In this document: positions 47,902 to 50,276 of the stretch, one piece after another
Numbering within the stretch: the stretch's first letter is position 1
Layout of the letters: each line of letters begins with the position of its first letter
Source: an uncultured Candidatus Saccharibacteria bacterium
GTDB taxonomy: Bacteria; Patescibacteriota; Saccharimonadia; CAILAD01; JADZBC01
Assembly: GCA_964413715.1 (NCBI GenBank)
Contig: CAYPSN010000001.1
Coordinates: 10,613-74,612 of the forward strand
Direction of reading: 5' to 3'
Length of the DNA: 64,000 nt
Notes under the pieces: generated by a model
What the model was told of the DNA's origin: nothing
Databases searched by the model: none
Seen by the model: the letters and a program-made list of their open reading frames with translations, nothing else
Made by a program: the position numbers and the translations under genes

Positions 47902-47911
47902 CAGGTCGATA

Positions 47912-47966
47912 TAAACGAAAAGGACCCCCGAACGAATCGGGGGTCCTTTCGTTCAGGGGTCGGGCG
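47912..47966. repeat. island repeat copy R1 (nested palindrome; terminator-like for the minus-strand gene at 47972)
   Basis: AACGAAAAGGACCCCCGAACGAATCGGGGGTCCTTTCGTTCAGGGGTCGGG: 13-bp stem AAAGGACCCCCGA/TCGGGGGTCCTTT with loop ACGAA. Confidence 0.8.
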
Positions 47967-47971
47967 GGCAG

Positions 47972-48415
47972 CTAGGGCCTGCGCTCCGGCTTCAACTCCA
48001 GATCGAGCTTGGCAAGCGAAGCTTCGACCAGCTCGAGACATGCAGCGCCGAAGCCCGTAATGGCGCGCAGCTCACTGGCGTCACGCTGTACGAGTTCGCC
48101 AACGGTGTTGATTCCTGCTCGTCGGAGGCATTCGGCCGTTCGAGTCTTCACTCCCTGCGTGAAGGGGACCCCCTCGAGCTTGATGTTCAGAAGGTCCTCG
48201 ATGTTCATCTTGAGAGTCTCGTGGCCTCGGCCAATGAACTCGGTGGTGATGTGCCTCTCTTCCACTCGGATTACGGCTCTCACTACGAGACCGTGGTATC
48301 GACCTTCCAGTGCCTCGATGTCATTCAAGGCGCTCAGGATTGCTAGGTGTTCTCCCGTAAGGCTGATTTCGACATCTGCCTTTTGGGGTACGACTTCGGA
48401 TCCGAAATCGGGCAT
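47972..48415 (-). CDS. island gene A: stand-alone RpoA C-terminal-fragment-like protein (end of alphaNTD + linker + alphaCTD double HhH)
   Basis: 147 aa. TAECLRRAGINTVGELVQRDASELRAITGFG..LELVEASLAKLDLELK aligns with actinobacterial RpoA alphaCTD ([37 protein letters not shown]). N-terminal 60 aa aligns with the last alphaNTD strand and linker. About 57% GC. Confidence 0.6.
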   Translation of the reverse strand: MPDFGSEVVPQKADVEISLTGEHLAILSALNDIEALEGRYHGLVVRAVIRVEERHITTEFIGRGHETLKMNIEDLLNIKLEGVPFTQGVKTRTAECLRRAGINTVGELVQRDASELRAITGFGAACLELVEASLAKLDLELKPERRP

Positions 48416-48476
48416 TGCAGTGGCCTTTTGTTCTCTGCGGGGCTACCGCAGCACATCCACGGTGGATGATTAGCAA

Positions 48477-48505
48477 ATAATATCACAAATATAGTAAAAA
48501 GTCAA
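48477..48505 (-). promoter_or_regulatory. promoter of island gene A: TTGACT-17-TATTAT (minus strand)
   Basis: The AT-rich 90-bp spacer contains near-consensus hexamers. The 5'UTR carries hairpin CUGCGGUAGCCCCGCAG and an AAAAGG SD. Confidence 0.5.
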
Positions 48506-48512
48506 TATCATT

Positions 48513-48563
48513 ATAACGAAAGGACCCCTGAACGAATCGGGGGCCTTTTCGTTCAGGGGTCGG
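48513..48563. repeat. island repeat copy R2
   Basis: ATAACGAAAGGACCCCTGAACGAATCGGGGGCCTTTTCGTTCAGGGGTCGG; 12-bp perfect arms CCCCTGAACGAA/TTCGTTCAGGGG plus an alternative overlapping stem. Confidence 0.8.
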
Positions 48564-48580
48564 TTTGATGGTGGGCCAGG

Positions 48581-48958
48581 TCAGCGGCTGAGGATGACCG
48601 TGCAGGATGGGTTGTCCTGGATCAGCCAGTCACCGTTGTACTGGACCAGCTTGCCATCACAGACCTTGCTGGTCTTGGAGCTGTCTGTCAAGGTGTAGCG
48701 CACGGACCTATTCCAGACCGAGAGCTCGACCACGTGGATCTTGTCGTAGTGCGACTCGACCTCCGTCGTGACACGGGCATCTTCCTTGGCCCGGCTCTCA
48801 TCCACGAGGTACATGCCATTGGCGAAGACCACGAAGATGACGGCCAGTACCCCGAAGGCGATGGCTGGCTTCCAGTGTTTCTTGGAGATCAGCAGGACAC
48901 CGGTGGCGACTGCGAGCACTCCCGCCATCATCAGTGCGACGATTACTTCTGCGCTCAT
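48581..48958 (-). CDS. island gene B: hypothetical two-TM membrane protein with about 70-aa extracytoplasmic Cys-containing C-domain
   Basis: 125 aa. GC3 about 80%. Perfect SD AAGGAGG 6 nt before the ATG. Confidence 0.55.
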   Translation of the reverse strand: MSAEVIVALMMAGVLAVATGVLLISKKHWKPAIAFGVLAVIFVVFANGMYLVDESRAKEDARVTTEVESHYDKIHVVELSVWNRSVRYTLTDSSKTSKVCDGKLVQYNGDWLIQDNPSCTVILSR

Positions 48959-49000
48959 GGCGCCTCCTTGTTCGGGGCCTCAGATTTAAGGCTGAAGGGT

Positions 49001-49038
49001 ATATTAGCATATTATGCAATAAAAGTAAATACATACAA
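49001..49038 (-). promoter_or_regulatory. promoter of island gene B (TTGTAT-18-TAATAT or TTTACT-17-TAATAT, minus strand)
   Basis: AT-rich spacer with two overlapping candidate hexamer pairs. Confidence 0.4.
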
Positions 49039-49051
49039 GGTTTTTTGTGTA

Positions 49052-49103
49052 ATAACGAAAAGACCCCCGAACGAATCGGGGGCCTCTTCGTTCGGGGGTC
49101 GGG
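49052..49103. repeat. island repeat copy R3
   Basis: AATAACGAAAAGACCCCCGAACGAATCGGGGGCCTCTTCGTTCGGGGGTCGGG. Confidence 0.8.
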
Positions 49104-49113
49104 TTGTGCCGGC

Positions 49114-49533
49114 TCAGCCGGAGGTGATGACCAGCTTGATGTCGGCGAAGGCGTAGGTCAGCGCCTGCTCGAACTCCAGGTCCTCGCCGATGCCGTGGCC
49201 GAAGTGCTCTCGAACGTCGACGGCTCGGATCACCTCGGTCTCCATGAGCACGCCCAGGGCGTGGTCGATGACCTGTGCCTTGAGCTTCTCCTGCGGATCG
49301 CTCCGCTTGGTGTCGATCAGGACCACACGGTTGTGCAGCTGGCTGAGCTTCTCGTGCTTCTCGTGGAGTCGGCCCTCGACGTTGATCACTGCATGTTCTG
49401 CAAGGATCTGGAAGCGCCCAGAGGTCACGATGGTCTGGATCTGGCCATCGTCACCCGTGAAGCGCAGGCTTCCGTCGGGCATGGTGGCCAAGAGGCCTAC
49501 CTGCAGGGCAGGCGTGGTTGCAGTTGCAGCCAT
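49114..49533 (-). CDS. island gene C: hypothetical soluble protein
   Basis: 139 aa. GC3 about 85%. SD GAAGGAG. No confident family; a weak epsilon-subunit-like GRFQILAEHAVI motif was considered and not trusted. Confidence 0.5.
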   Translation of the reverse strand: MAATATTPALQVGLLATMPDGSLRFTGDDGQIQTIVTSGRFQILAEHAVINVEGRLHEKHEKLSQLHNRVVLIDTKRSDPQEKLKAQVIDHALGVLMETEVIRAVDVREHFGHGIGEDLEFEQALTYAFADIKLVITSG

Positions 49534-49568
49534 GTCGGTTCTCCTTCGTGAGTGGATGACAGTACATA

Positions 49569-49597
49569 ATTATGCATGATTAATTCAAAAATGTCAA
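49569..49597 (-). promoter_or_regulatory. promoter of island gene C: TTGACA-17-CATAAT (minus strand)
   Basis: Consensus -35 and 17-nt spacer in an AT-rich spacer. Confidence 0.5.
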
Positions 49598-49620
49598 TAT
49601 TAAAGAGACATTTTCATTCT

Positions 49621-49672
49621 ATAACGAAAAGGCCCCCGAACGAATCGGGGGCCTTTCCGTTCAGGGGTCGTG
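49621..49672. repeat. island repeat copy R4
   Basis: ATAACGAAAAGGCCCCCGAACGAATCGGGGGCCTTTCCGTTCAGGGGTCG. Confidence 0.8.
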
Positions 49673-49687
49673 TTGTGAGGCCTGCCT

Positions 49688-50119
49688 CTAGCCGATCGGC
49701 TTGAGGCTCAGCCCGTGCTCGGCCAGCTTCTCCTTGACCAGGTCGAGGCTCTTCTGGCCGAAGTGCGTGATCGCGAGGAGGTCGTCCTCGGTCTTCTCGA
49801 CGAGCTGGCTGACGGTCTCGATCTGCGCACGACGTAGGTTGTTGCGGGTGCGGTCGACCTGGCTGTTGCCGGGGTCGGGGTGGCCGATGAGCTCCTCGAT
49901 GGTCATCTCCGGGGCCGGCCTCTGCCCGATGAACTCGATGCGCGACTTGTCGCCGATGAACTCGATGCTCGAGACCTGGGTCTCGATGCGCGCGCTGAGC
50001 TTGACGTCGGGGTAGTCCTCCGGGATGCGCAGGATGGCGGCCTTGGCCGCCAGGATCTGGTCCGTGGGGCCCGTCAAGACGAGCTCGGCGGAGATGCTGT
50101 TGGGTGCGGGGTCGGTCAT
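49688..50119 (-). CDS. island gene D: stand-alone actinobacterial-type RpoA C-terminal fragment (last alphaNTD strand + linker + alphaCTD)
   Basis: 143 aa. QVDRTRNNLRRAQIETVSQLVEKTEDDLLAITHFGQKSLDLVKEKLAEHGLSLK closely resembles actinobacterial RpoA CTD (..[47 protein letters not shown]), including the actinobacterial FGQKS signature. N-terminal TGPTDQILAAKAAIL resembles the last alphaNTD element. GC3 about 95%. Confidence 0.7.
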   Translation of the reverse strand: MTDPAPNSISAELVLTGPTDQILAAKAAILRIPEDYPDVKLSARIETQVSSIEFIGDKSRIEFIGQRPAPEMTIEELIGHPDPGNSQVDRTRNNLRRAQIETVSQLVEKTEDDLLAITHFGQKSLDLVKEKLAEHGLSLKPIG

Positions 50120-50182
50120 ATTTCCTCTTTCGTTGGGCGACCGGTTGCGTCCTTGTGGACGATTTTACAAGACGATTTTGCA

Positions 50183-50211
50183 ATATTAGCATAATTTTTA
50201 TTAATTGTCAA
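50183..50211 (-). promoter_or_regulatory. promoter of island gene D: TTGACA-17-TAATAT (minus strand), back-to-back with the hisS promoter
   Basis: Consensus -35 and a near-consensus -10 with 17-nt spacer. Confidence 0.5.
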
Positions 50212-50276
50212 TATTAGCTGACATTTTGTCGGCCGGCTACTTTCCGCTATACTAAACCTAAAGTAAAGGAGCCAGT

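What the first reader, a model, noticed from the sequence alone, without database searches (positions are those of the whole stretch)
47902..50276. High-GC island of four self-contained promoter-ORF-palindrome cassettes
Seen directly: between rhodanese/small ORF (+) and hisS (+) lie four minus-strand ORFs (444, 378, 420 and 432 nt). Three of them (B, C, D) are 62-68% GC with GC3 of 80-95%, which is an actinobacterial style; gene A is only about 57% GC. The three internal spacers are about 30% GC; the outer flank carries the gene D and hisS promoters. Every ORF has (i) its own near-consensus sigma70-type promoter in the AT-rich spacer (TTGACT-17-TATTAT, TTGTAT-18-TAATAT, TTGACA-17-CATAAT, TTGACA-17-TAATAT), (ii) a strong SD, and (iii) a copy of the same ~52-bp nested palindrome immediately 3' of its stop codon. 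Nothing is operonic. Inference: this modular, cassette-like layout with host-like coding DNA and resident-like regulatory DNA suggests horizontally acquired genes that were individually domesticated, or a mobile cassette array. Gene A's lower GC hints at an older arrival or a different donor. I know of no characterised system with this exact architecture.
Basis: partly seen in the sequence, partly recalled or inferred. Interest (0 to 1): 0.9.

Follow-up and report, generated by a model that had tools for sequence, protein, structure and literature searches.

The report
Swappable small-gene cassettes beside hisS
In a small clade of Saccharibacteria (tiny bacteria that live attached to other bacteria), the gap next to the hisS gene holds one to four self-contained mini-genes that differ between relatives, are swapped between species, evolve fast and keep an oddly G+C-rich codon style. 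This is an unusual version of a known kind of recombination hotspot, not a simple import from actinobacteria.

Summary
Four minus-strand ORFs (147, 125, 139 and 143 aa) each have their own sigma70-like promoter and a copy of a ~55-nt palindrome found nowhere else in the window. GC3 is 0.67/0.83/0.84/0.97, against 0.49±0.04 for 50 host genes. The host is Candidatus Saccharibacteria. In eleven related genomes the same slot (ftsX/rhodanese | hisS) holds one to four cassettes in different combinations, drawn from the A/D, B and C families plus two other ORFs. Each A/D-, B- or C-family gene, and Y in L051, is followed by the same element; X in L007 has its own terminator. The B+C block is 91-100% identical between two genomes whose flanks are 55-80% identical, so cassettes move laterally. 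A and D are free-standing RNA-polymerase alpha-CTD proteins. B is a membrane protein and C is an ORFan. All are essentially confined to this locus across billions of database proteins. An actinobacterial origin is not supported for B and C, and only D's alpha-CTD resembles RpoA of high-GC bacteria. The GC excess sits at codon position 3 only and appears to be maintained, not decaying, in C and D. The best reading is a minimal-mobile-element-like cassette hotspot, with a two-state bidirectional terminator as the portable module. Protein functions and the cause of the high GC3 remain open.

The parts
47456..47901 (+). Conserved flank: a rhodanese-domain gene (47456-47707) and a 59-aa glycine-rich membrane ORF (47722-47901). 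Both converge on the array.
   Evidence: Pfam PF00581, E 2.5e-14. The same flank is present in relatives.
47913..47969 (.). T1: a copy of the conserved palindromic element. It is a predicted bidirectional terminator shared by the convergent + strand genes and by gene A.
   Evidence: Repeat family D1. Terminator scan hit on the minus strand at 47950-47918. RNA fold -32.2 kcal/mol, z -5.8.
47972..48415 (-). Gene A: a 147-aa protein with a small N-terminal domain and an RNA polymerase alpha C-terminal domain (alpha-CTD). It is a paralogue of D, and its DNA-contact residues are degenerate.
   Evidence: PF03118, E 3.9e-10, 39.8 bits against a cut-off of 23.8. 33% identity to D, E 6e-15. dN/dS 0.27-0.37.
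48416..48512 (-). A's promoter (-35 TTGACT at 48505-48500, -10 TATTAT at 48482-48477, with TG) and a conserved hairpin-rich 5'UTR.
   Evidence: The stretch is 91% identical to L008 although the A coding sequence is only 52-70% identical.
48513..48569 (.). T2: the element copy 3' of gene B. Homology between the window and L007 ends inside it, at 48561.
   Evidence: In this copy the alternative hairpin S2 is favoured, at -28.0 against -20.4 kcal/mol.
48581..48958 (-). Gene B: a 125-aa protein with two N-terminal hydrophobic helices and a C-terminal domain containing two conserved cysteines.
   Evidence: ORF and translation. Only weak membrane-protein Pfam hits. Homologues in L023 (51% identity, E 1e-44) and L044 (26% identity, E 9e-9). 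95% identical to the L008 copy.
48959..49051 (-). B's strong SD (AAGGAGG) and a weak promoter: TTTACT-17-TAATAT at 49029-49001, or TTGTAT-18-TAATAT at 49038-49009.
   Evidence: The site was not reported by the consensus scan.
49052..49108 (.). T3: the element copy 3' of gene C.
   Evidence: The two alternative hairpins are isoenergetic, at -30.9 kcal/mol each.
49114..49533 (-). Gene C: a 139-aa soluble ORFan protein with no known domain.
   Evidence: No Pfam, PADLOC or NCBIfam match. There are 4 homologue clusters among 5.8 billion proteins and 3 among 1.84 billion representatives by exhaustive HMM search. 53 alignment columns are invariant. dN/dS 0.43-0.75.
49534..49620 (-). C's SD (AAGGAG) and promoter (-35 TTGACA at 49597-49592, -10 CATAAT at 49574-49569).
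   Evidence: 11 of 12 positions match. The left edge of the D indel relative to L008 falls at the -35 box, 49598/49599.
49621..49677 (.). T4: the element copy 3' of gene D.
   Evidence: RNA fold -34.5 kcal/mol, z -7.0.
49688..50119 (-). Gene D: a 143-aa protein with a small N-terminal domain and an alpha-CTD that retains the equivalents of E. coli R265, N268, G296, K298 and S299. GC3 is 0.97. It carries a 27-nt internal tandem duplication.
   Evidence: PF03118, E 1.3e-13. 73% identity over 52 aa to an actinobacterial-type RpoA. AlphaFold2 mean pLDDT 71.5, and only alpha-CTD fold matches. Residue conservation was read by eye against E. coli numbering. Duplication: repeat D9 and the alignment.
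50120..50276 (.). Divergent promoter region. It holds D's promoter (-35 TTGACA at 50211-50206, -10 TAATAT at 50188-50183, minus strand), the hisS promoter (TTGTCG-16-TATACT at 50226-50253, plus strand), and a TGTCA-N8-TGACA palindrome at 50206-50223 that overlaps D's -35.
   Evidence: The palindrome is conserved in the D promoters of L047, L059 and L060.
50277..51596 (+). Conserved flank: hisS (histidyl-tRNA synthetase).
   Evidence: Pfam annotation. It is present beside every related array.

Best explanation
This is a hypervariable 'cassette slot' in a narrow clade of Candidatus Saccharibacteria, between ftsX/rhodanese and hisS. It carries one to four autonomous mini transcription units. In the window, each unit has a sigma70-type promoter (shared -35 motif TATTGAC; B's promoter is weak and lacks this motif), a short leader, a small lineage-restricted ORF, and a conserved ~55-nt element. 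The element folds into two alternative strong hairpins flanked by an A-tract and a U-tract. It therefore acts as a bidirectional intrinsic terminator that insulates each unit from its neighbours. Because the element (about 50 nt) and the -35 motif (about 10 nt) recur in register in every unit, whole units can be lost, duplicated or exchanged by recombination. Units also move between co-resident Saccharibacteria species, most likely by natural transformation followed by homologous recombination, as in Neisseria 'minimal mobile elements'. The cargo is a set of fast-evolving small proteins: two free-standing alpha-CTD proteins (D probably still binds A/T-rich DNA as RNAP alpha does, and A probably does not), a membrane-anchored protein, and an ORFan. 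Presence/absence variation and fast protein evolution suggest a role in conflict or host interaction. What is shown: the architecture, the locus variability, the lateral transfer, the restricted distribution, the position-3-only GC excess and the alpha-CTD identity. What is inferred: terminator function, the recombination mechanism, the protein roles and the cause of the high GC3.
For: (1) Locus variability. Contents are window D-C-B-A; L008/L022 C-B-A'; L007 X-A; L047, L059, L060 and L069 D only; L041 and L055/56 C only; L051 C+Y; L023 B only. All lie between the same flanking genes.
(2) Lateral transfer. Window 48400-49560 is 91-100% identical to L008, while the flanks are 55-80% identical. 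4-fold site divergence is B 0.06, C 0.03 and D 0.14-0.20, against 0.55-0.64 for hisS. Both genome types occur in the same sample, ERZ27309396.
(3) The element travels with the gene. It follows the cassette ORF whether the neighbour is the 59-aa ORF, rhodanese, ftsX or another cassette. A B-family gene with the same type of element sits at a different locus, yraN-nusA, in L044.
(4) The element is cassette-specific. The full form was found only in Saccharibacteria and only at cassettes, in a scan of 185,579 species genomes. The bare 19-nt core is a generic hairpin found in many phyla.
(5) Hairpins. Free energies are -28 to -34.5 kcal/mol with z-scores of -5.7 to -7.0. Two alternative folds are possible in all 15 copies examined, and the stem shows compensatory changes in L008_A2 and L055_C4.
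(6) A breakpoint lies in the element. Homology between the window and L007 stops at 48561 inside T2 and resumes at 50240 in the hisS promoter.
(7) No recombinase. No integrase or transposase Pfam family appears within about 10 kb on either side.
(8) Saccharibacteria are naturally competent and integrate DNA by homologous recombination (PMC10633639).
(9) The island is found in at least 5 independent assemblies.
Against: No transcript data exist, so promoter and terminator function and transcript independence are predictions. The edges of the transferred B+C tract (about 48400 and about 49560) do not coincide with the palindromes, so the element is not demonstrably the crossover site. The mechanism by which a unit is added rather than replaced or deleted is not explained by simple double crossover. 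All related loci were found through the cassettes or the element, so an 'empty' site was never sampled. Biased gene conversion, the obvious cause of high GC3 in a recombination hotspot, should also raise GC3 in the recombining flanks, but hisS (0.47) and rhodanese (0.48) are normal. The GC3 therefore remains unexplained. The protein functions are unknown: the C model is unusable (pLDDT 40).
Confidence: 0.6

Rival explanations
1. One reading: the ORFs were imported from high-GC Actinomycetota, the host phylum of cultivated Saccharibacteria. Each was then individually fitted with resident promoters and terminators. High GC3 is a donor signature that ameliorates with age.
For: GC3 is 0.83-0.97. 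D's alpha-CTD is 65-73% identical to housekeeping RpoA from genomes of 69-73% GC whose RpoA is of the mycobacterial/streptomycete type. It is 57% identical to the M. tuberculosis RpoA by my count from the alignment. Older or vertically inherited copies have lower GC3: A 0.67-0.71, B in L023 0.67 and C in L041 0.70. A's third positions are decaying, with 14 S>W changes against 1 W>S.
Against: No full-length homologue of any cassette protein was found outside the Saccharibacteria locus, among 5.8 billion and 1.84 billion proteins, IMG/VR, GenBank phages or PLSDB plasmids. GC2 is host-like (0.36-0.39, z -0.4 to 0.2), whereas genes of a 71% GC genome average 0.52. Third-position changes in C imply an equilibrium GC3 of 0.73-0.79 (W>S per site greater than S>W, p 0.0007), and in D 0.76-0.84. 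The hisS control gives 0.45-0.48, so GC3 is being maintained rather than ameliorating. Single-outgroup parsimony inflates W>S in GC-rich sequence, so this is suggestive only. The Saccharibacteria's own RpoA alpha-CTD could not be obtained for comparison.
Confidence: 0.15
2. This is an integron-like or other site-specific cassette system. The palindrome would be an attC-like hairpin site for a recombinase encoded elsewhere in the genome, and units would be excised and inserted as circles.
For: The ORF plus 3' imperfect palindrome module is co-oriented in tandem, with one element per unit. The element moves with its gene to another locus. One inter-genome breakpoint lies inside an element. The element's sequence is more conserved across species than the coding genes are.
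Against: No tyrosine recombinase or any transposase domain lies within about 10 kb on either side in any of the loci. The element lacks the attC core sites (RYYYAAC / GTTRRRY; here ..TAAC / GTTCRGG) and has a perfectly paired stem without the extrahelical bases that define attC. Every unit has its own promoter, unlike the usually promoterless integron cassettes. The edges of the transferred B+C tract are not at the elements.
Confidence: 0.1
3. This is purely vertical history: an ancestral multi-gene array followed by differential loss through deletion between the direct repeats, with no inter-species transfer.
For: Direct repeats of about 50 nt in register would readily delete whole units. A behaves as vertically inherited. 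Some copies, B in L023 and C in L041, are as diverged as the flanks (4-fold divergence 0.71-0.76 against 0.60).
Against: B and C are 95% identical in protein, and 91-100% identical in DNA, between genomes whose ftsX and hisS proteins are 67% and 79% identical with saturated synonymous sites. D's 4-fold divergence of 0.14-0.20 is well below both the hisS value (0.61-0.64) and my own estimate of its compositional saturation level (about 0.49), computed from the position-3 base counts.
Confidence: 0.05
4. This is an assembly or binning artefact: high-GC reads from an actinobacterium were chimerically joined into a Saccharibacteria contig.
For: Metagenome contigs often end inside the island (L001, L003 and L004).
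Against: The same junctions recur in independent assemblies made by different assemblers and from different samples (ENA ERZ27309396, ERZ28656156, Logan SRR14234032 and SRR6747782, and NCBI). High-GC ORFs alternate every ~550 nt with AT-rich promoters and with the element, which no chimera would produce. Diverged orthologous arrays exist in eleven other genomes.
Confidence: 0.01

Closest known systems
Minimal mobile elements (MMEs) of Neisseria (Saunders & Snyder 2002; Snyder et al. 2007; definition quoted in PMC3082526)
   Same: Two conserved flanking genes hold different whole-gene cassettes in different strains or species. No transposase or integrase is associated. The hosts are naturally transformable, so exchange by homologous recombination is plausible. 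Recombination tracts are visible in the data.
   Different: Up to four cassettes are stacked in tandem. In the window each is a complete promoter-ORF-terminator unit, and every A/D-, B- and C-family gene examined carries the same conserved 3' element. The cargo has an extreme GC excess confined to codon position 3. The host is a CPR (Candidate Phyla Radiation) epibiont.
Integron gene-cassette arrays (ORF + attC, IntI)
   Same: Co-oriented small ORFs are each followed by an imperfect palindrome. Cassette number and order vary between relatives. Many of the cargo genes are ORFans.
   Different: There is no IntI nearby. The element has no attC core sites or extrahelical bases, and its sequence rather than just its structure is conserved. 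Each cassette has its own promoter. The observed tract edges are not at the palindromes.
Bidirectional intrinsic terminators, and repeated intergenic palindromes used as terminators (REP/BIME-type elements)
   Same: The A-tract / GC-rich stem / U-tract design gives a terminator-like hairpin on both strands. The first copy sits between convergent genes.
   Different: It is not dispersed through the genome. It occurs only 3' of these cassette genes, with 1-4 copies per genome. It also carries an extra conserved 5' segment (GACCCCCGAACGAA) that offers a second, mutually exclusive hairpin.
RNA polymerase alpha subunit C-terminal domain (Pfam PF03118) and small stand-alone alpha-CTD-like proteins (e.g. 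NCBIfam PRK07758)
   Same: A and D score above the Pfam threshold. The model of D superposes on solved alpha-CTDs at rmsd 1.5-3 Å over about 70 alignment columns. D keeps the DNA-contact residues.
   Different: There is no alpha N-terminal (dimerisation/assembly) domain, so A and D cannot be RNAP subunits. Their ~85-residue N-terminal domain has no detectable relatives. They are encoded in a variable cassette, not in the ribosomal-protein operon.

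Membership tests
Minimal mobile element (MME) | [quoted passage not shown] | tested here: met
   Eleven related genomes have the same ftsX/rhodanese and hisS flanks and ten different contents of one to four cassettes.
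Minimal mobile element (MME) | No dedicated mobility genes (transposase, integrase) associated | tested here: met
   The Pfam columns for all called genes within about 10 kb on either side show none. Whole genomes were not examined.
Minimal mobile element (MME) | Incorporated by homologous recombination after DNA uptake | tested here: inconclusive
   A 1.15-kb tract is 91-100% identical within flanks that are 55-80% identical, and a second tract lies in hisS at 50601-50700 (97%). Competence is shown for the phylum in PMC10633639. The event itself was not observed.
Integron cassette array | Adjacent IntI tyrosine recombinase with attI and Pc | tested here: not met
   No Phage_integrase-type domain is present within about 10 kb of any of the arrays.
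Integron cassette array | attC sites: R''/L''-L'/R' cores (RYYYAAC...GTTRRRY), extrahelical bases, with structure rather than sequence conserved | tested here: not met
   The cores read ..TAAC / GTTC(A/G)GG. The stem is fully paired over 17-20 bp, and the sequence is nearly invariant across species.
Integron cassette array | Mostly promoterless cassettes transcribed from a common Pc | tested here: not met
   A TATTGAC-type -35 and a -10 lie upstream of nearly every cassette in every genome.
Intrinsic (Rho-independent) terminator | GC-rich hairpin followed by a U-tract on the transcribed strand | tested here: met
   The inner stem GG(N)CCCCCGA/UCGGGGG(N)CC is followed by UUUUCGUU. The fold is -28 to -34.5 kcal/mol with z-scores of -5.7 to -7.0. 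The scan flags T1 on the minus strand and T2 and T3 on the plus strand. Termination activity itself was not tested.
REP/BIME-type dispersed palindromes | Tens to hundreds of copies dispersed in intergenic regions genome-wide | tested here: not met
   The window has 4 copies, all in the island. Whole representative genomes have 1-3 copies each, all next to cassette genes.
RNA_pol_A_CTD (PF03118) | Score above the Pfam gathering threshold, and the helix-hairpin-helix fold | tested here: met
   A scores 39.8 bits and D 50.9 bits against a cut-off of 23.8. Foldseek matches to solved alpha-CTDs have TM-scores (normalised to the target) of 0.77-0.90.
RpoA (RNAP alpha subunit proper) | N-terminal assembly domain (PF01000/PF01193), ~310-350 aa, located in the rpsM-rpsK-rpsD-rpoA-rplQ context | tested here: not met
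   A and D are 143-147 aa. The N-terminal part shows no similarity to RpoA. NCBIfam rpoA equivalog scores of 39-49 bits fall far below the cut-offs of 228-434.
Genomic island acquired from a high-GC donor | Donor-like composition at all codon positions, and homologues in the donor group | tested here: not met
   GC3 is donor-like, but GC2 is 0.36-0.39, the same as the host. There are no homologues of B or C outside Saccharibacteria, and only D's alpha-CTD resembles RpoA of high-GC bacteria.

The most novel reading that the evidence does not exclude
The slot is a dedicated, exchangeable arsenal for the epibiotic lifestyle. The conserved two-state hairpin would be both a terminator and the recognition or annealing site of an undescribed cassette-shuffling mechanism in CPR bacteria. 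The D family would be a free-standing mimic of the actinobacterial host's RNAP alpha-CTD that is delivered to, or expressed in, the high-GC host. There it would compete for UP elements or activators and re-programme host transcription. The maintained, host-like codon position 3 would reflect that adaptation.
Probability: 0.1. Interest if true: 0.85.

Novelty: new variant of a known kind. Interest (0 to 1): 0.6.

Why it matters
Saccharibacteria and other CPR bacteria have tiny genomes, and little is known about how they gain and exchange genes. This locus is a compact, comparative example of inter-species cassette exchange in the group. It is probably driven by their recently demonstrated natural competence. 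It also supplies ready-made, insulated promoter-terminator modules that could be useful for the new genetic tools in these organisms. The cargo raises two sharp questions that can be tested directly. First, what do free-standing alpha-CTD proteins, most similar to the RpoA of the host phylum, do in an epibiont? Second, what force keeps GC3 near 0.8-0.97 in a few hundred bases of a 49% GC genome while the adjacent, also recombining, genes stay at 0.47?

Tried and rejected
- Rfam, both at gathering thresholds over the whole window and in E-value mode over 47.4-50.4 kb: nothing but a chance Phe_leader hit, E 0.52.
- tRNA scan of the window: none found.
- PADLOC and PHROGs: no meaningful hits. There was only a weak helix-hairpin-helix match to PglW.
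- AlphaFold2 model of C: pLDDT 40, unusable, so no fold search was run on it. PDB sequence search for C: nothing.
- Fold search with the D model: only alpha-CTD matches, so the N-terminal domain remains unassigned. hhalign of the A/D profile against a full RpoA: only the CTD aligns.
- Two scans of metagenome contigs and one of viral contigs for the extended element returned nothing. The pattern does work on the fetched loci, including a JGI one, so that collection evidently lacks these records.
- The 19-nt core alone proved non-specific; it is a common terminator hairpin in many phyla.
- Viral, phage and plasmid searches for B, C and D: no full-length relatives.
- I could not obtain a Saccharibacteria RpoA to compare with D's alpha-CTD.
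- Biased gene conversion as the cause of high GC3: considered and down-weighted, because the recombining flanks are not GC3-enriched.
- Chimeric assembly: rejected because the junctions recur in independent assemblies.

Full report

Yes. Four minus-strand ORFs lie between a rhodanese gene plus a 59-aa ORF (+) and hisS (+). They are A (47972-48415), B (48581-48958), C (49114-49533) and D (49688-50119). GC and GC3 are 0.577/0.669, 0.587/0.825, 0.626/0.836 and 0.662/0.972. Fifty other genes of the window have GC3 of 0.494 ± 0.040, with a maximum of 0.64. The four genes are therefore 4.4, 8.4, 8.6 and 12.1 standard deviations out. GC2 is host-like, with z-scores of -0.4 to 0.2.

A 57-nt repeat follows each stop codon, and the copies are 77-91% identical to the reference copy. 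Its core occurs four times in the window against 0.02 expected by chance, and nowhere else in the 64 kb. Promoter-like sites are enriched, at 8 against 1.8 ± 1.2 expected.

Some corrections are needed:
- B is 58.7% GC, not 62-68%.
- The internal spacers are 44-48% GC overall and the outer D-hisS flank is 39.5%; only the AT-rich promoter cores, including that of the outer flank, are 23-33%.
- B's promoter and A's Shine-Dalgarno are weak.

**2. Whose genome, and is the island an artefact?**

Exact protein look-ups place the island in NCBI, ENA and Logan assemblies from several samples. A related contig is annotated as uncultured Candidatus Saccharibacteria (L022). The same junctions recur in independent assemblies, so a chimera is excluded.

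**3. What the relatives show**

Every relative of C or D whose context I read lies at the same place, divergent from hisS. B's two relatives lie at this slot (L023) and at one other locus (L044, section 5). The content of the slot differs between genomes:

| Genome (locus) | Cassettes at the slot |
|---|---|
| window | D-C-B-A |
| L008 / L022 | C-B-A' |
| L007 (closest relative; HisS protein 95% identical) | X-A |
| L047, L059, L060, L069 | D only |
| L041, L055/56 | C only |
| L051 | C + Y |
| L023 | B only |

Each cassette gene has raised GC3 (0.63-0.97) relative to its own flanks (0.42-0.57). The exception is X in L007, at 0.49. Each A/D-, B- or C-family gene is followed by the same element. 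So is Y in L051; X in L007 ends in its own terminator, followed by a decayed remnant of T2.

**4. The cassettes move**

Between the window and L008, ftsX and hisS are 55-80% identical in DNA. The ftsX and hisS proteins are 67% and 79% identical, with synonymous sites saturated. Yet window 48400-49560 is 91-100% identical to L008. This stretch covers A's leader and promoter, T2, B, T3 and C. Fourfold-site divergence shows the same contrast:

| Gene | Fourfold-site divergence |
|---|---|
| B | 0.06 |
| C | 0.03 |
| D | 0.14-0.20 |
| hisS | 0.55-0.64 |

By contrast, A tracks the flanks (0.18 against 0.19, and 0.45 against 0.55). Both array types occur in the same sample.

Breakpoints differ by comparison. 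Homology between the window and L007 stops at 48561, inside T2, and resumes at 50240 in the hisS promoter. The D indel relative to L008 spans 49599-50236, and its left edge is at C's -35 box.

**5. The element**

In mRNA sense it reads CCGACCCC(C/U)GAACGAAAAGG(A)CCCCCGAUUCGUUCGGGGG(U)CCUUUUCGUU, followed by A/U-rich sequence. It can form two alternative hairpins:
- S1 is a 17-20-bp hairpin with a UUCGU loop. An A-tract pairs with the U-tract, which is the classic bidirectional-terminator layout.
- S2 is a 14-bp hairpin between the upstream segment GACCCCCGAACGAA and UUCGUUCGGGGGUC, followed directly by the U-tract.

Both folds are possible in all 15 copies examined. S1 is usually more stable, S2 wins in the two B copies, and the two tie in win_C. 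S1 shows compensatory changes in L008_A2 and L055_C4.

The 19-nt core alone is a generic terminator hairpin found in many phyla. The full element was found only in Saccharibacteria and only next to these genes. A B-family gene with the same type of element sits at another locus, yraN-nusA, in L044. The ORF and its element therefore travel together. There is no Rfam match.

**6. The proteins**

- **A and D** are paralogues (33% identity). Each has a C-terminal RNA polymerase alpha-CTD, PF03118. The model of D has a mean pLDDT of 71.5 and matches only solved alpha-CTDs. The ~85-residue N-terminal domain has no detectable relatives.
- **DNA-contact residues.** Read against E. coli numbering, D keeps R265, N268, G296, K298 and S299, the UP-element DNA-contact residues. 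A has lost N268, K298 and S299. This rests on my own alignment and on established alpha-CTD literature.
- **D's distribution.** D has six full-length homologue clusters among 5.8 billion proteins. The four whose contexts I read all lie at this locus.
- **D's nearest other relatives.** Beyond the family, the best matches are housekeeping RpoAs at 65-73% identity over the CTD. These RpoAs are closest to mycobacterial and streptomycete RpoA. Three sampled source contigs are 69-73% GC and carry rpoA in the rpsM-rpsK-rpsD-rpoA-rplQ context.
- **B** has two N-terminal hydrophobic helices and a C-terminal domain containing two conserved cysteines. Its only relatives are in L023 and L044.
- **C** has no recognisable domain. 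An exhaustive profile search of 1.84 billion representatives found three true clusters.
- **Wider searches.** No relatives were found in IMG/VR, GenBank phages or PLSDB plasmids, apart from alpha-CTD-only matches. PADLOC and PHROGs gave no meaningful hits.

**7. Evolutionary rates and composition**

The flanking genes have dN/dS of 0.05-0.11. C and D have 0.43-0.90, and A and B 0.15-0.37. Nei-Gojobori estimates are inflated by extreme codon bias, so I treat these as 'fast-evolving', not as evidence of positive selection.

Polarised third-position changes give the following implied equilibrium GC3:

| Gene | Implied equilibrium GC3 | Note |
|---|---|---|
| C | 0.73-0.79 | per-site W>S exceeds S>W, Fisher p 0.0007 |
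| D | 0.76-0.84 | few changes, not significant |
| A | 0.15 | 14 S>W against 1 W>S |
| hisS (control) | 0.45-0.48 | |

Single-outgroup parsimony favours spurious W>S calls in GC-rich sequence, so these figures are suggestive only. Taken together with the host-like GC2, high GC3 in C and D looks maintained rather than a fading donor signature. Biased gene conversion is the textbook candidate, but the recombining flanks show no enrichment. The cause remains unexplained.

**8. Interpretation**

The best-supported reading (confidence about 0.6) is a minimal-mobile-element-like hotspot. [quoted passage not shown] Saccharibacteria are naturally competent and integrate DNA by homologous recombination (PMC10633639).

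What is new relative to MMEs:
- the tandem stacking of complete promoter-ORF-terminator units;
- a conserved two-state terminator that accompanies the A/D-, B- and C-family genes;
- the position-3-only GC excess;
- the cargo, which includes free-standing alpha-CTD proteins.

An integron-like system is disfavoured. There is no integrase within about 10 kb, the element has no attC features, and every unit has its own promoter. Purely vertical history and assembly artefact are rejected. Import from actinobacteria remains possible only for D's alpha-CTD module.

**9. Verdict**

This is a new variant of a known kind. I score interest at 0.6: it would be a worthwhile locus for CPR biologists and for tool-building. 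Two open puzzles, the GC3 maintenance and the role of the alpha-CTD proteins, could raise its value.

Noticed in passing
window 42465-42498, compared with L007 2369-4762 and L008 2357-4780: Relatives carry a ~2.4-kb gene of 797-807 aa with no Pfam hit, between the PIF1/RecD-like helicase and the LOG-family gene. That gene is absent from the window, so this is a second presence/absence polymorphism 5 kb from the cassette slot.
   Followed up: no
window 49926-49972 (gene D): A 27-nt tandem duplication (CCGATGAACTCGATGC.CGA, two copies) adds nine residues (..IEFIGDKSRIEFIG..) that are absent from all six D homologues.
   Followed up: partly
window 50206-50223: A TGTCA-N8-TGACA palindrome overlaps D's -35 box in the divergent D/hisS promoter region. 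It is the only such site in the window, and it is conserved upstream of D in L047, L059 and L060. It is a possible operator for a dimeric regulator.
   Followed up: partly
window 48416-48476; L069 2200-2257: A's 5' leader is 91% conserved between the window and L008 although the coding sequence is only 52-70% identical. Its motif GTGGAYGTGCTGCGG-N6-CCGCAG, with two hairpins, reappears in the leader of a D-family gene in L069. This may be a shared regulatory or stabilising leader of the A/D family.
   Followed up: no
window 50601-50700 (hisS): A 100-nt stretch of hisS is 97% identical to L008, while the rest of the gene is 49-90% identical. This is a second short recombination tract next to the slot.
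   Followed up: no
window 47722-47901: A 59-aa glycine-rich predicted membrane ORF is conserved in several relatives but missing from others, where rhodanese or ftsX directly abuts the element (L047, L060, L055). The flank itself is therefore somewhat variable.
   Followed up: partly
L001, L003, L004 (contig ends at window ~49.5-50.3 kb): Short-read metagenome assemblies repeatedly break inside the island. This is probably due to the repeated element and to co-occurring array variants, and such loci will be under-represented in MAGs.
   Followed up: no
L065, L066 (IMG/VR contigs, 33% GC): Two viral contigs encode alpha-CTD-like segments that are 45% identical to D residues 90-140, and GenBank fecal phage records give similar partial matches. 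Free-standing alpha-CTD-like proteins therefore also exist in low-GC phages.
   Followed up: no
window 49578-49661: A weak Rfam match to Phe_leader (24 bits against a gathering score of 55, E 0.52) overlaps C's promoter and T4. I judge it a chance match.
   Followed up: yes
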